Source: Eledone cirrhosa
Lineage: Eukaryota
Direction of reading: 5' to 3'
Length of the DNA stretch: 64,000 bases
Assembly: GCA_964016885.1 (NCBI GenBank)
Contig: OZ024742.1
Location: forward strand, 288,300,001-288,364,000
Part shown: positions 51,417-64,000 of the stretch, piece by piece
Layout: each line of letters opens with the position of its first letter
Position numbering within the stretch: position 1 is the stretch's first letter
Notes under the pieces: generated by a model
The model's input: only the letters and a program-made list of their open reading frames with translations
What the model was told of the DNA's origin: nothing
The model's database searches: none
Position numbers and translations under genes: made by a program

Positions 51417-51757
51417 GGAGGCACATGGCTTAGTGGTTAGAGCATTGGCCTTGCAATCGAAAGATTGTGAGTTCAATTCTCAGACTGGGTGATGTGTTGT
51501 TTCCTTGAGCAAGACACTTTATTTCACATTGCTCCAGTTTACTCAGCTGTAAAAATGAGATGATAGGGACTGAGGTCCCTATCATTCCACTGCAAAGTGG
51601 TTGTGGAGGTGCCACGGCAAAAGAAAGCACCCAGCACTCACTGTAAATGAGGTTGGTGTTAGGAAGGGCATCCAGCTGTAGAAATCAGGCCAAAATCAGT
51701 TCCCGTCCCACCCTTGCAAGCAGGGAAAAGCGGACATAAAATGATGATGATGATGAT
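51417..51757 (+). mobile_element. CORE-type tRNA-derived SINE
   Basis: Near-identical to 20228-20561. Confidence 0.88.
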
Positions 51758-51819: not shown

Positions 51820-52164
51820 ATCATCATCATCATCATTTCATTTTACATCCGCTTTTTCCCTGCTTGCAAGGGTGGGACGGGAACTGATTCTGGGTTGATT
51901 TCTACAGCTGGATGCCCTTCCTAACACCAACCTCATTTACAGTGAGTGCTGGGTGCTTTTTTGCCGTGGCACCTGCACGACCACTTTGCAGTGGAATGAT
52001 ATGGACCCCAATCCCTATCATCTCATTTCTACAGCTGAGTAAACTGGAGCAATGTGAAATAAAGTGTCTTGCTCAAGGAAACAACACATCACCCAGTCTG
52101 AGAATTGAACTCACAACCTTTCGATTGCAAGGCCAATGCTCTAACCACTAAGCCATGTGCCTCC
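51820..52164 (-). mobile_element. CORE-type tRNA-derived SINE (inverted partner of 51417-51757)
   Basis: Reverse complement of preceding copy with few differences. Confidence 0.88.
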
Positions 52165-54894: not shown

Positions 54895-58770
<3,876 letters not shown>

Positions 58771-58795
58771 TATACATATACATATATATATATAC

Positions 58796-58846
<51 letters not shown>

Positions 58847-58847
58847 C

Positions 58848-58926
<79 letters not shown>

Positions 58927-58943
58927 TACATATATATACATAT

Positions 58944-58978
<35 letters not shown>

Positions 58979-58989
58979 CATATATATAC

Positions 58990-59036
<47 letters not shown>

Positions 59037-59093
59037 TATACATATATATATATATACATATATATACATATATATATATATACATATATATAC

Positions 59094-59212
<119 letters not shown>

Positions 59213-59502
59213 CATATATACATATATATATATACATATATATGTATATATGCATACTAGTATTTCAGTATACATATGTGGATGTACATTTTTAACTTAA
59301 TTGTTTAAGCGTCAGTCATACAAAAGTGAGTTACAAACGAAACGAAATTTAATTTCGTTTCGTTATTTGTTTTTATCGTCTCCGCTGAACCGGTACGTAC
59401 TCACGCTCTATGCAAATTAGTCTGCCCACTACTAATTTTCATAGAAAAAGCATATAACGATATGTGCTTTTACGATTCTCTAGAAAGGCCGGAAGATAGG
59501 TA

Positions 59503-59547
59503 AATATTGCTGATGAGATGTAACAACATCGAAACTAGTCCAATATT
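59503..59547 (+). ncRNA. Type I hammerhead ribozyme, copy 1
   Basis: AATATTG-CTGATGA-GATGT AACA ACATC-GAAA-CTA-GTC-CAATATT; 7-bp stem I, 5-bp stem II, GUC triplet (cut predicted after 59540). Confidence 0.9.
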
Positions 59548-59968
59548 CCTTGTCTGGCTTTCTGGAGAATAGAGGAAAGGTGTTTCCTCGAAAACCAGTA
59601 TGACTCTAAAAACCGGTTTGTCTGTGTGTTTACATACAGAATAGCTGGACACTCACAGTAAAGTGTCCAGTGAAAAACTCGGTACATCTACATATGTACA
59701 CGTGTGTGTATTCATATGCATACTAGTATTTCAGTATACATATGTGGATGTACATTTTTAACTTAATTGTTTAAGCGTCAGTCATACAAAAGTGAGTTAC
59801 AAACGAAACGAAATTTAATTTCGTTTCGTTATTTGTTTTTATCGTCTCCGCTGAACCGGTACGTACTCACGCTCTATGCAAATTAGTCTGCCCACTACTA
59901 ATTTTCATAGAAAAAGCATATAACGATATGTGCTTTTACGATTCTCTAGAAAGGCCGGAAGATAGGTA

Positions 59969-60013
59969 AATATTGCTGATGAGATGTAACAACATCGAAA
60001 CTAGTCCAATATT
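59969..60013 (+). ncRNA. Type I hammerhead ribozyme, copy 2
   Basis: Identical to copy 1. Confidence 0.9.
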
Positions 60014-60434
60014 CCTTGTCTGGCTTTCTGGAGAATAGAGGAAAGGTGTTTCCTCGAAAACCAGTATGACTCTAAAAACCGGTTTGTCTGTGTGTTTACA
60101 TACAGAATAGCTGGACACTCACAGTAAAGTGTCCAGTGAAAAACTCGGTACATCTACATATGTACACGTGTGTGTATTCATATGCATACTAGTATTTCAG
60201 TATACATATGTGGATGTACATTTTTAACTTAATTGTTTAAGCGTCAGTCATACAAAAGTGAGTTACAAACGAAACGAAATTTAATTTCGTTTCGTTATTT
60301 GTTTTTATCGTCTCCGCTGAACCGGTACGTACTCACGCTCTATGCAAATTAGTCTGCCCACTACTAATTTTCATAGAAAAAGCATATAACGATATGTGCT
60401 TTTACGATTCTCTAGAAAGGCCGGAAGATAGGTA

Positions 60435-60479
60435 AATATTGCTGATGAGATGTAACAACATCGAAACTAGTCCAATATT
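60435..60479 (+). ncRNA. Type I hammerhead ribozyme, copy 3
   Basis: Identical to copy 1. Confidence 0.9.
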
Positions 60480-60900
60480 CCTTGTCTGGCTTTCTGGAGA
60501 ATAGAGGAAAGGTGTTTCCTCGAAAACCAGTATGACTCTAAAAACCGGTTTGTCTGTGTGTTTACATACAGAATAGCTGGACACTCACAGTAAAGTGTCC
60601 AGTGAAAAACTCGGTACATCTACATATGTACACGTGTGTGTATTCATATGCATACTAGTATTTCAGTATACATATGTGGATGTACATTTTTAACTTAATT
60701 GTTTAAGCGTCAGTCATACAAAAGTGAGTTACAAACGAAACGAAATTTAATTTCGTTTCGTTATTTGTTTTTATCGTCTCCGCTGAACCGGTACGTACTC
60801 ACGCTCTATGCAAATTAGTCTGCCCACTACTAATTTTCATAGAAAAAGCATATAACGATATGTGCTTTTACGATTCTCTAGAAAGGCCGGAAGATAGGTA

Positions 60901-60945
60901 AATATTGCTGATGAGATGTAACAACATCGAAACTAGTCCAATATT
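60901..60945 (+). ncRNA. Type I hammerhead ribozyme, copy 4
   Basis: Identical to copy 1. Confidence 0.9.
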
Positions 60946-61366
60946 CCTTGTCTGGCTTTCTGGAGAATAGAGGAAAGGTGTTTCCTCGAAAACCAGTATG
61001 ACTCTAAAAACCGGTTTGTCTGTGTGTTTACATACAGAATAGCTGGACACTCACAGTAAAGTGTCCAGTGAAAAACTCGGTACATCTACATATGTACACG
61101 TGTGTGTATTCATATGCATACTAGTATTTCAGTATACATATGTGGATGTACATTTTTAACTTAATTGTTTAAGCGTCAGTCATACAAAAGTGAGTTACAA
61201 ACGAAACGAAATTTAATTTCGTTTCGTTATTTGTTTTTATCGTCTCCGCTGAACCGGTACGTACTCACGCTCTATGCAAATTAGTCTGCCCACTACTAAT
61301 TTTCATAGAAAAAGCATATAACGATATGTGCTTTTACGATTCTCTAGAAAGGCCGGAAGATAGGTA

Positions 61367-61411
61367 AATATTGCTGATGAGATGTAACAACATCGAAACT
61401 AGTCCAATATT
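61367..61411 (+). ncRNA. Type I hammerhead ribozyme, copy 5
   Basis: Identical to copy 1. Confidence 0.9.
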
Positions 61412-61832
61412 CCTTGTCTGGCTTTCTGGAGAATAGAGGAAAGGTGTTTCCTCGAAAACCAGTATGACTCTAAAAACCGGTTTGTCTGTGTGTTTACATA
61501 CAGAATAGCTGGACACTCACAGTAAAGTGTCCAGTGAAAAACTCGGTACATCTACATATGTACACGTGTGTGTATTCATATGCATACTAGTATTTCAGTA
61601 TACATATGTGGATGTACATTTTTAACTTAATTGTTTAAGCGTCAGTCATACAAAAGTGAGTTACAAACGAAACGAAATTTAATTTCGTTTCGTTATTTGT
61701 TTTTATCGTCTCCGCTGAACCGGTACGTACTCACGCTCTATGCAAATTAGTCTGCCCACTACTAATTTTCATAGAAAAAGCATATAACGATATGTGCTTT
61801 TACGATTCTCTAGAAAGGCCGGAAGATAGGTA

Positions 61833-61877
61833 AATATTGCTGATGAGATGTAACAACATCGAAACTAGTCCAATATT
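61833..61877 (+). ncRNA. Type I hammerhead ribozyme, copy 6
   Basis: Identical to copy 1. Confidence 0.9.
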
Positions 61878-62298
61878 CCTTGTCTGGCTTTCTGGAGAAT
61901 AGAGGAAAGGTGTTTCCTCGAAAACCAGTATGACTCTAAAAACCGGTTTGTCTGTGTGTTTACATACAGAATAGCTGGACACTCACAGTAAAGTGTCCAG
62001 TGAAAAACTCGGTACATCTACATATGTACACGTGTGTGTATTCATATGCATACTAGTATTTCAGTATACATATGTGGATGTACATTTTTAACTTAATTGT
62101 TTAAGCGTCAGTCATACAAAAGTGAGTTACAAACGAAACGAAATTTAATTTCGTTTCGTTATTTGTTTTTATCGTCTCCGCTGAACCGGTACGTACTCAC
62201 GCTCTATGCAAATTAGTCTGCCCACTACTAATTTTCATAGAAAAAGCATATAACGATATGTGCTTTTACGATTCTCTAGAAAGGCCGGAAGATAGGTA

Positions 62299-62343
62299 AA
62301 TATTGCTGATGAGATGTAACAACATCGAAACTAGTCCAATATT
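62299..62343 (+). ncRNA. Type I hammerhead ribozyme, copy 7
   Basis: Identical to copy 1. Confidence 0.9.
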
Positions 62344-62764
62344 CCTTGTCTGGCTTTCTGGAGAATAGAGGAAAGGTGTTTCCTCGAAAACCAGTATGAC
62401 TCTATAAACCGGTTTGTCTGTGTGTTTACATACAGAATAGCTGGACACTCACAGTAAAGTGTCCAGTGAAAAACTCGGTACATCTACATATGTACACGTG
62501 TGTGTATTCATATGCATACTAGTATTTCAGTATACATATGTGGATGTACATTTTTAACTTAATTGTTTAAGCGTCAGTCATACAAAAGTGAGTTACAAAC
62601 GAAACGAAATTTAATTTCGTTTCGTTATTTGTTTTTATCGTCTCCGCTGAACCGGTACGTACTCACGCTCTATGCAAATTAGTCTGCCCACTACTAATTT
62701 TCATAGAAAAAGCATATAACGATATGTGCTTTTACGATTCTCTAGAAAGGCCGGAAGATAGGTA

Positions 62765-62809
62765 AATATTGCTGATGAGATGTAACAACATCGAAACTAG
62801 TCCAATATT
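62765..62809 (+). ncRNA. Type I hammerhead ribozyme, copy 8
   Basis: Identical to copy 1. Confidence 0.9.
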
Positions 62810-63030
62810 CCTTGTCTGGCTTTCTGGAGAATAGAGGAAAGGTGTTTCCTCGAAAACCAGTATGACTCTAAAAACCGGTTTGTCTGTGTGTTTACATACA
62901 GAATAGCTGGACACTCACAGTAAAGTGTCCAGTGAAAAACTCGGTACATCTACATATGTACACGTGTGTGTATTCATATGCATACTAGTATTTCAGTATA
63001 CATATGTGGATGTACATTTTTAACTTAATT

Positions 63031-64000
<970 letters not shown>

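What the first reader, a model, noticed from the sequence alone, without database searches (positions are those of the whole stretch)
59327..59755. Monomer is almost entirely built of hairpins (viroid-like branched fold)
Seen within one unit: AACGAAACGAAATT/AATTTCGTTTCGTT; CTATGCAAATTAGT/ACTAATTTTCATAG; AAAAGCATAT/ATGTGCTTTT; an extension of hammerhead stem I (ATTCTCTAGAAAGGCCGGA pairing with TCTGGCTTTCTGGAGAAT, plus AGG/CCT across a bulge); GAGGAAA/TTTCCTC; TCTGTGTGT/ACATACAGA; CTGGACACT/AGTGTCCAG; GTACATCTACATATGTACAC/GTATACATATGTGGATGTAC. Several apparent mismatches are G.U pairs on the + strand. Inference: selection acted on the RNA structure of the + transcript rather than on DNA.
Basis: partly seen in the sequence, partly recalled or inferred. 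Interest (0 to 1): 0.75.

Follow-up and report, generated by a model that had tools for sequence, protein, structure and literature searches.

The report
Folded hammerhead retrozyme with Penelope footprints
The hairpins are real and belong to the 466-base repeat unit of an abundant, protein-free jumping element that carries a predicted self-cutting RNA motif; inherited changes tend to keep its fold, and it is likely pasted into TA repeats by a Penelope-type reverse transcriptase, probably from a small RNA circle.

Summary
All eight listed helices are present. They lie in a 466-bp x 8.1 tandem array (59248-63030) with one type I hammerhead per unit. The circular monomer folds at -156.5 kcal/mol on + (z -10.7) and -134.9 on - (z -8.2). 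About 67% of bases pair, so 'almost entirely' overstates it. Inherited variants keep pairing in 16 of 23 cases, against 25 of 105 single-unit mutations (p 5e-5). Sister families rebuild several helices from other sequence. The G.U bias to + is only modest, and DNA-energy folds show no + advantage. The family has over 9,400 hammerhead cores in this 3-Gb genome. Its copies carry a Penelope footprint: (TA)n targets and head-to-head arms, and in 51 of 56 two-armed insertions one arm ends at a 'long' and the other at a 'short' fixed site (none long+long or short+short). It is a metazoan non-LTR retrozyme, a known kind whose self-paired fold is already described; it is not a viroid. Expression, cleavage, circularity and the partner element are untested. 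This scan reported the same anatomy earlier on other DNA of this genome.

The parts
59248..63030 (+). One-armed retrozyme insertion: 8.1 tandem units of 466 bp, 8 hammerheads, 7 full monomers; 5'-truncated at unit position 174, 3' end at the 'short' site (unit position 228; position 1 = first base after the cleavage site)
59541..60006 (+). First complete monomer, cleavage site to cleavage site (466 nt, 36.5% GC, longest ATG ORF 19 aa on +, 50 aa on -); the predicted circular RNA
59492..59563 (+). Type I hammerhead: core CUGAUGA at 59510, 5-bp helix II, GAAA, minimal helix III with palindromic ACUAGU, predicted cut after GUC at 59540; repeats every 466 bp to 62802
   Evidence: Rfam HH9 E 4.3e-8, 38.9 bits, below the gathering score of 52
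59475..59570 (+). Extension of helix I (59475-59493 with 59553-59570), with compensatory and G.U/G-C variants
59336..59376 (+). 14-bp hairpin plus U-rich linker ending at the 'long' 3' end site (unit position 302 = 59376), a predicted reverse-transcription start site
59682..59773 (+). Long TA-like hairpin (59682-59753) plus U-rich linker ending at the 'short' 3' end site (unit positions 228-233 = 59768-59773), the second predicted start site
59598..59787 (+). Multibranched domain closed by an 8-bp long-range helix (59598-59605 with 59780-59787); holds hairpins 59621-59640, 59645-59670, the long hairpin and the short end site
   Evidence: sister-family changes read by eye
59408..59444 (+). Hairpin holding an ATGCAAAT octamer (59410-59417), kept in sister families; possible promoter element (inferred); one 7-locus subfamily has lost the octamer but keeps pairing through G.U
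59446..59471 (+). 11-bp hairpin, invariant in 10 of 10 aligned family-A monomers
59572..59589 (+). 7-bp hairpin with one compensatory and two G.U variants
58771..59247 (.). (TA)n microsatellite, left flank (target)
63031..63997 (.). (TA)n microsatellite, right flank (target; likely primer side)

Best explanation
The hairpin-rich unit is the monomer of a young, abundant non-coding retrozyme whose branched fold is kept by selection, likely at the RNA level, and which is likely copied into (TA)n tracts by the reverse transcriptase of a Penelope-like element (PLE), probably from a circular monomer. Steps: (1) An array is transcribed on the + strand (inferred; an internal octamer may help). (2) Two neighbouring hammerheads pair their palindromic helix III and cut after GUC, releasing 466-nt monomers (motif shown; activity and dimer inferred from PMC4209133 and PMC7229834). 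(3) Extended helix I holds the two ends together and a host ligase such as RtcB closes the circle (inferred from PMC7229834). (4) The fold protects the RNA and presents two U-rich linkers, each just 3' of a long hairpin (predicted). (5) A PLE endonuclease/RT cuts a (TA)n tract and starts two cDNAs, one at each linker, one from each side of the break, each running through several units (end positions, TA targets and multi-unit arms shown; enzyme inferred). (6) The two randomly truncated 5' ends are joined head to head (shown as a genomic pattern). The window copy is a single arm ending at the short site.
For: Fold z -10.7 on +; + more stable in 8 of 8 monomers from two families. Pairing kept in 16 of 23 inherited vs 25 of 105 single-unit variants, p 5e-5. 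6 pairs with double changes, reached by 3 of 500 shuffles; slid controls 0-1. Hammerhead helices I and II differ in sequence but still pair between sister families, with the core unchanged. 5,239 + 4,177 hammerhead cores of this family and 14,019 of sister families in G000. 138 of 143 arm 3' ends fall at two sites; 51 of 56 two-armed insertions are long+short, none long+long or short+short. 125 of 136 such ends run into TA-rich sequence; 5' ends are uniform, with 2 of 139 at the cleavage site (3.6 expected); 134 of 139 arms cross a cleavage site. Both arms of an insertion share a haplotype. The genome is PLE-rich: 10,595 GIY-YIG candidates and long open RT + GIY-YIG frames. Two internal RT start sites produce the PLE 'tail' (PMC11167929); the tail is often at one end only, with an inverted 5'-truncated copy and microsatellite bias (PMC8557442, PMC3846280).
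Against: No expression, cleavage or circle data. No homology between the monomer and the terminal repeat of any sampled PLE (50 loci, output cut; 58 loci; out of about 10,600 candidates), so the partner is unidentified. The tail here is 69-74 nt against the 30-40 bp described. Some arrays are mosaics of recurring unit haplotypes, one shared in the same order by both arms (L049; also L033, L059), which a single monomer circle cannot give. In the one PLE studied in vitro, uncleaved RNA was the main template (PMC11167929), and 8 of 9 frog retrozyme dimers did not cleave in vitro (bioRxiv 10.64898/2026.07.22.740005). DNA-energy folds show no + advantage. Several inherited variants break pairs (7 of 23). 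Loci were picked by similarity or by core pattern, so core invariance in 86 of 86 is partly circular.
Confidence: 0.78

Rival explanations
1. Same element and same Penelope machinery, but the template is a long linear read-through transcript of an array; the hammerhead only trims or releases RNA, and circles are by-products or absent.
For: Mosaic arrays with ordered unit haplotypes shared by both arms (L049, L059). Uniform 5' ends fit an uncleaved precursor as well as a circle. The anole PLE uses unprocessed RNA in vitro (PMC11167929). The triple A>G haplotype was not private to one locus: 70 copies at 7 loci, so a homogeneous source array exists.
Against: Copying with 5' truncation can only shorten arrays, yet arms reach about 16 units in my sample, and new haplotypes become fixed in every unit of long arrays, which needs a monomer-to-multimer step. 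Hammerhead helices are maintained by compensatory changes.
Confidence: 0.3
2. The G.U bias to the + strand comes from A-to-I editing of the structured RNA before reverse transcription (a mutational bias), not from selection on wobble pairs. This can hold together with the best explanation.
For: Three clustered A>G changes in one stem define a subfamily. Of 14 variants fixed in one sampled insertion and seen in no other, 6 are A>G and 0 are T>C (3 of the 6 are that one cluster).
Against: Overall A>G vs T>C tests are not significant (14 vs 6, p 0.07; 10 vs 4, p 0.11). Several wobble states arise from C>T or revert to Watson-Crick, and double compensatory changes cannot come from editing. It still requires a folded + RNA.
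Confidence: 0.2
3. The hairpins are DNA-level features (palindromes from TA microsatellite, template-switch repair of quasi-palindromes in single-stranded cDNA) with no selection on RNA shape.
For: Both strands fold far better than shuffles. With DNA energies the minus strand scores z -11.2 against -9.0 for plus. The long hairpin is TA-like and holds a (TA)n tract in a sister family.
Against: Wobble-type states sit on + (11 vs 3; 10 vs 2 at 5 or more insertions, p 0.04), while single-unit mutations lean the other way (16 GU vs 33 AC). A hammerhead has meaning only as RNA. Long-range helices, not just local hairpins, are kept across families.
Confidence: 0.08
4. A viroid-like RNA that replicates RNA-to-RNA, with the genomic arrays as integrated by-products.
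For: Viroid-like size and branched fold; quasi-species-like subfamilies.
Against: No hammerhead core on the minus strand and no ribozyme match there in Rfam. Thousands of DNA copies with a retrotransposition footprint explain the spread without it.
Confidence: 0.04
5. Mobilised by the adjacent RTE-like LINE, or amplified as plain satellite DNA or by a DNA rolling-circle element.
For: An intact 1,075-aa endonuclease + RT frame lies 600 bp away in the same TA region. Some arrays show local duplications (period 4 in L041/42).
Against: The LINE ends in a short (TGA)n-type tail that the retrozyme lacks. Two fixed internal ends paired on inverted arms match the described PLE layout, not LINE insertion or unequal crossover.
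Confidence: 0.04

Closest known systems
Metazoan non-LTR retrozymes (Cervera and de la Pena 2020, PMC7229834; parts 2-4 of 6 read); hammerhead closest to axolotl HHR_Amex1 / newt satellite 2
   Same: Short non-coding tandem repeats, GC under 50%, one type I hammerhead per unit, weak helix III with palindromic loop, highly self-paired predicted circle with the hammerhead free to fold, PLEs in the same genome.
   Different: Unit of 466 nt is just above their 150-450 bp (inside the 51-972 bp of the 2026 preprint). The parts read describe no fixed 3' ends, inverted two-arm layout or (TA)n targeting. Expression and circles are shown there, not here.
Non-LTR retrozymes as non-autonomous PLE derivatives (Li, Clavereau, Pollet, bioRxiv 10.64898/2026.07.22.740005; parts 1-3 of 5 read, supplements closed)
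   Same: Proposes PLE origin and mobilisation; multimer arrays.
   Different: Their evidence is co-occurrence and pLTR homology in frogs. Here it is insertion anatomy, and no pLTR homology was found in the sampled PLE loci.
Penelope-like elements: pLTR, tail and two internal RT start sites (PMC11167929 parts 1-2 of 4 read; PMC8557442, PMC3846280, PMC4209133 passages)
   Same: Two alternative 3' ends, tail on one end only, inverted 5'-truncated copy joined head to head, AT-rich or microsatellite targets, dimer-type hammerhead.
   Different: No ORF. Tail of 69-74 nt rather than 30-40 bp. Both arms are multi-unit arrays. The long+short pairing was strict here (51 of 51 classed), whereas the tail is described there as optional or 'often' at one end.
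Hammerhead viroids (Avsunviroidae) and viroid-like RNAs (recalled)
   Same: Size, branched fold, hammerhead.
   Different: Those have ribozymes on both strands and no DNA stage; this has one plus-strand hammerhead and thousands of genomic copies.

Membership tests
Metazoan non-LTR retrozyme | [quoted passage not shown] | tested here: met
   466 bp x 8.1; 465-470 bp in relatives
Metazoan non-LTR retrozyme | Type I hammerhead in every unit | tested here: met
   8 cores; Rfam HH9 E 4.3e-8, below gathering score
Metazoan non-LTR retrozyme | Non-coding, GC under 50% | tested here: met
   GC 36.5%; longest ATG ORFs 19 and 50 aa
Metazoan non-LTR retrozyme | No LTR, primer-binding site or polypurine tract | not tested
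   No LTR-like flanks seen at arm ends; PBS and PPT not searched
Metazoan non-LTR retrozyme | Highly self-paired predicted monomer | tested here: met
Metazoan non-LTR retrozyme | Self-cleavage of the transcript | not testable with these tools
   needs in vitro transcription
Metazoan non-LTR retrozyme | Expressed as linear and circular monomer RNA | not testable with these tools
Metazoan non-LTR retrozyme | Autonomous PLEs in the same genome | tested here: met
Non-autonomous Penelope-like element | Inverted 5'-truncated copy joined head to head | tested here: met
   56 two-armed insertions, 0 adjacent tail-to-tail, 32 single arms; the window copy itself is single-armed
Non-autonomous Penelope-like element | Two 3' ends (tail), tail on one end only | tested here: met
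   51 of 56 long+short, 0 long+long, 0 short+short, 5 unclassed; tail 69-74 nt
Non-autonomous Penelope-like element | AT-rich or microsatellite target | tested here: met
   125 of 136 ends
Non-autonomous Penelope-like element | Homology to the pLTR of an autonomous PLE | tested here: inconclusive
   none in 58 sampled loci of about 10,600 candidates; hits there were separate retrozyme insertions
Viroid / viroid-like replicon | Ribozyme on both polarities | tested here: not met
Viroid / viroid-like replicon | No DNA counterpart | tested here: not met
   over 9,400 genomic cores
Viroid / viroid-like replicon | RNA-to-RNA replication | not testable with these tools
   needs strand-specific RNA data

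The most novel reading that the evidence does not exclude
The branched fold is a two-handle scaffold: two domains each present one U-rich start site behind a long hairpin, so that a dimeric Penelope RT primes the same small RNA circle twice, once at each site, and rolls round it from both ends of a break in a TA tract. This would explain the strict long+short rule, assign a function to a retrozyme fold, and give a minimal defined RNA for reconstituting Penelope priming on circular RNA.
Probability: 0.35. Interest if true: 0.75.

Novelty: new member of a known kind. Interest (0 to 1): 0.48.

Why it matters
The fold itself is expected of a retrozyme. Two additions are useful: comparative evidence that the whole fold, not only the ribozyme, is under selection, and a clean genomic footprint tying retrozyme spread to Penelope-type priming at two mapped sites. 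The papers read here propose Penelope mobilisation but do not show how it starts. A 466-nt RNA with two known start positions, thousands of young copies and intact PLE frames in the same genome makes that step, and the circle-versus-linear question, directly testable.

Tried and rejected
Rfam at gathering threshold found no ribozyme in the window; the hammerhead appears only below threshold. Sequencing runs: no RNA holder listed among 6 runs, so no evidence either way on expression; contig lay-overs served only as a source of variant leads. First G.U vs A.C count, on 110 monomers with overlapping loci not merged: 11 vs 7, p 0.48; redone per insertion. The idea that a triple A>G haplotype was private to one 19-unit insertion, which would have argued for a single edited circle, failed: 70 copies at 7 loci. 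Search for the autonomous partner: blastn and a profile found no pLTR homology in 50-58 PLE loci; 30 other hammerhead-like loci with the same helix III had no PLE protein match. The cross-family consensus fold (22 of 88 pairs with double changes) is misaligned around the TA hairpin, so only helices I, II and the octamer hairpin are taken from it. A single-pair helix III costs about 6 kcal/mol in the monomer model, so a monomeric active hammerhead was set aside. Literature: searches returned no paper on this family or on two-armed retrozyme insertions; only open-access text is searched. The original newt promoter paper is not in the library; it is cited second-hand from a passage of PMC2220036, and its octamer is recalled. 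L205 was dropped from counts as a near-duplicate of L204.

Full report
Observation. The finding lies in a tandem array at 59248-63030, period 466, 8.1 copies, between two (TA)n tracts. Its seven full monomers are identical but for one substitution. The stated span folds as RNA at -156.3 kcal/mol on + (z -10.8) and -135.1 on - (z -8.3), with 0 of 100 shuffles as good on either strand. The monomer folded as a circle gives -156.5 and -134.9, with 67% of bases paired on +. The structure is real and far beyond chance, but two thirds paired rather than 'almost entirely'.

What it is. Each unit holds one type I hammerhead on +: a 7-bp helix I with a UA bulge and a long extension, the CUGAUGA core, a 5-bp helix II, GAAA, and a minimal helix III inside the palindrome ACUAGU, with a predicted cut after 59540 (Rfam HH9 E 4.3e-8, below its gathering score). 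Forming helix III in one copy costs about 6 kcal/mol, while two palindromes pair at -4.8. This is the dimer-type hammerhead described for metazoan repeats (PMC4209133, passages; PMC7229834, parts 2-4 of 6). There is no core on the minus strand and no ORF over 50 aa. The own genome (3.0 Gb) holds 5,239 and 4,177 exact matches to two versions of the core of this family and 14,019 of sister families, about 65% identical where they align. This is a metazoan non-LTR retrozyme, a class already described as short tandem repeats giving highly self-paired circular RNAs.

Is the fold selected, and as RNA? In ten family monomers (89-98% identical to the window's) 98.2% of cells pair; 6 of 126 pairs show double changes, reached by 3 of 500 shuffles and by 0-1 in slid controls. 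The structure came from one of these sequences, which favours it. A cleaner test used 86 insertions. Pair states found in three or more insertions keep pairing in 16 of 23 cases, while single-unit mutations keep it in 25 of 105 (Fisher p 5e-5). Watson-Crick/G.U interchanges outnumber Watson-Crick/A.C by 11 to 3 (binomial p 0.057; p 0.035 against singletons, which run 16 GU to 33 AC). The plus strand is 15-40 kcal/mol more stable in 8 of 8 monomers from two families (only 12 shuffles each). Sister families rebuild helices I and II and the long-range helix from different sequence (read by eye). Against: an earlier count without merging loci gave 11 to 7 (p 0.48); DNA-energy folds are symmetric; 7 of 23 inherited states break pairs. 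A-to-I editing may add to the G.U bias. One subfamily carries three clustered A>G changes in a stem (70 copies, 7 loci), but overall A>G versus T>C tests are not significant (p 0.07-0.11). Verdict: selection on the fold is well supported; that it acts on the plus RNA is likely, resting on the hammerhead and a modest wobble bias.

How it moves. I mapped arms at loci from the best DNA matches (40 of 314 candidates scored) and from the first pattern hits on contig C1. Of 143 arms, 74 end at unit position 299-303 and 64 at 227-234; 5 end elsewhere. Of 56 two-armed, head-to-head insertions, 51 pair one long with one short end, none pair like with like, and 5 could not be classed; 32 arms are single. 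125 of 136 such ends run into TA-rich DNA. 5' ends are uniform (chi-square p 0.44), with no pile-up at the cleavage site (2 of 139, 3.6 expected), and 134 of 139 arms cross a cleavage site (loci were chosen for holding a core, so that last count is biased). The two arms of an insertion share their haplotype. Six of six readable two-armed loci of the sister families show the same long+short ends (by eye). Each end follows a long hairpin by some 12-20 nt of U-rich, largely unpaired sequence. This matches the Penelope layout: an inverted 5'-truncated copy, a tail often at one end only, microsatellite bias (PMC8557442, PMC3846280; passages), and two internal start sites that define the tail (PMC11167929; parts 1-2 of 4). 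The genome has 10,595 GIY-YIG candidates and long RT + GIY-YIG frames. A few PLE copies read by eye also end in TA at two alternative points. No sampled PLE shares sequence with the monomer, so the partner is open. Within-insertion variants show a G>A excess over C>T (53 vs 27, p 0.01), which would fit reverse-transcription error or cDNA deamination (inference).

Circle or linear template. Many arrays are uniform, and haplotypes become fixed across long arrays, as rolling round a monomer circle would give. Others are mosaics, and in L049 both arms share an ordered run of unit haplotypes, which needs a multimeric template, switching between templates, or later conversion. My test for a private edited haplotype failed. 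I put the circle step at roughly 0.6.

Novelty and value. It is a new member of a known class (PMC7229834; bioRxiv 10.64898/2026.07.22.740005, parts 1-3 of 5, supplements closed and possibly relevant). It is not a viroid. My searches found no paper describing fixed paired ends for retrozymes, but this scan has already noted that anatomy for this and related families elsewhere in the same genome; my end mapping was made before reading those notes, which are not independent support. The value lies in the evidence of selection on the whole fold and in two mapped start sites that make the copying step testable. Interest 0.48.

Noticed in passing
window 55413-58640 (-), element about 55031-58770: Intact 1,075-aa LINE frame (AP endonuclease + RT; RTE-like by its short (TGA)n-type tail, label recalled) inserted in the same TA region, next to the retrozyme.
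   Followed up: partly
L181:8100-10000; L211-L240: Sister retrozyme families (14,019 cores) with a U.U or C.A mismatch at the base of helix II, mostly GUA or GUU cleavage triplets and, in one, a variable (TA)n tract inside the long hairpin.
   Followed up: partly
window 59410-59417: ATGCAAAT octamer about 100 nt upstream of the hammerhead, kept in the sister families; newt satellite 2 is reported to use an snRNA-type promoter (passage in PMC2220036). A 7-locus subfamily lacks it.
   Followed up: partly
L244-L270 (116 matches): Dozens of single-copy hammerhead-like motifs with the same GAAACUAGU helix III but unrelated helix II and flanks; possibly old remnants or retained intronic ribozymes.
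   Followed up: partly
run X4, laid on window 59843-60338: One 495-base contig (a 465-base unit plus 30) of a single variant in a run labelled as another organism, with no sister family laid; fits a closed loop from tandem DNA or a circle, or contamination. Run kind unknown.
   Followed up: no
run X5, window 59721-59737: Seven clustered T>C changes in one low-depth contig over the long hairpin, as antisense hyper-editing would look; depth 3, run kind unknown.
   Followed up: no
L172:7000-7920: Another tandem unit (period about 459) in a TA tract with a hammerhead-like core on +, unrelated to this family.
   Followed up: no
L181:7330-7420; L174, L179, L189: A further dispersed hammerhead-like family with a GAAAUAUAUAUA helix III region next to TA tracts.
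   Followed up: no
window 30123-30192 (-), 51424-51487 (+), 52094-52157 (-): Three near-identical weak tRNA-like matches, probably heads of a tRNA-derived SINE.
   Followed up: no
G000 C1:55.969 Mb and C1:55.987 Mb (L204, L205): Two insertions with identical junctions 17 kb apart: a local segmental duplication.
   Followed up: no
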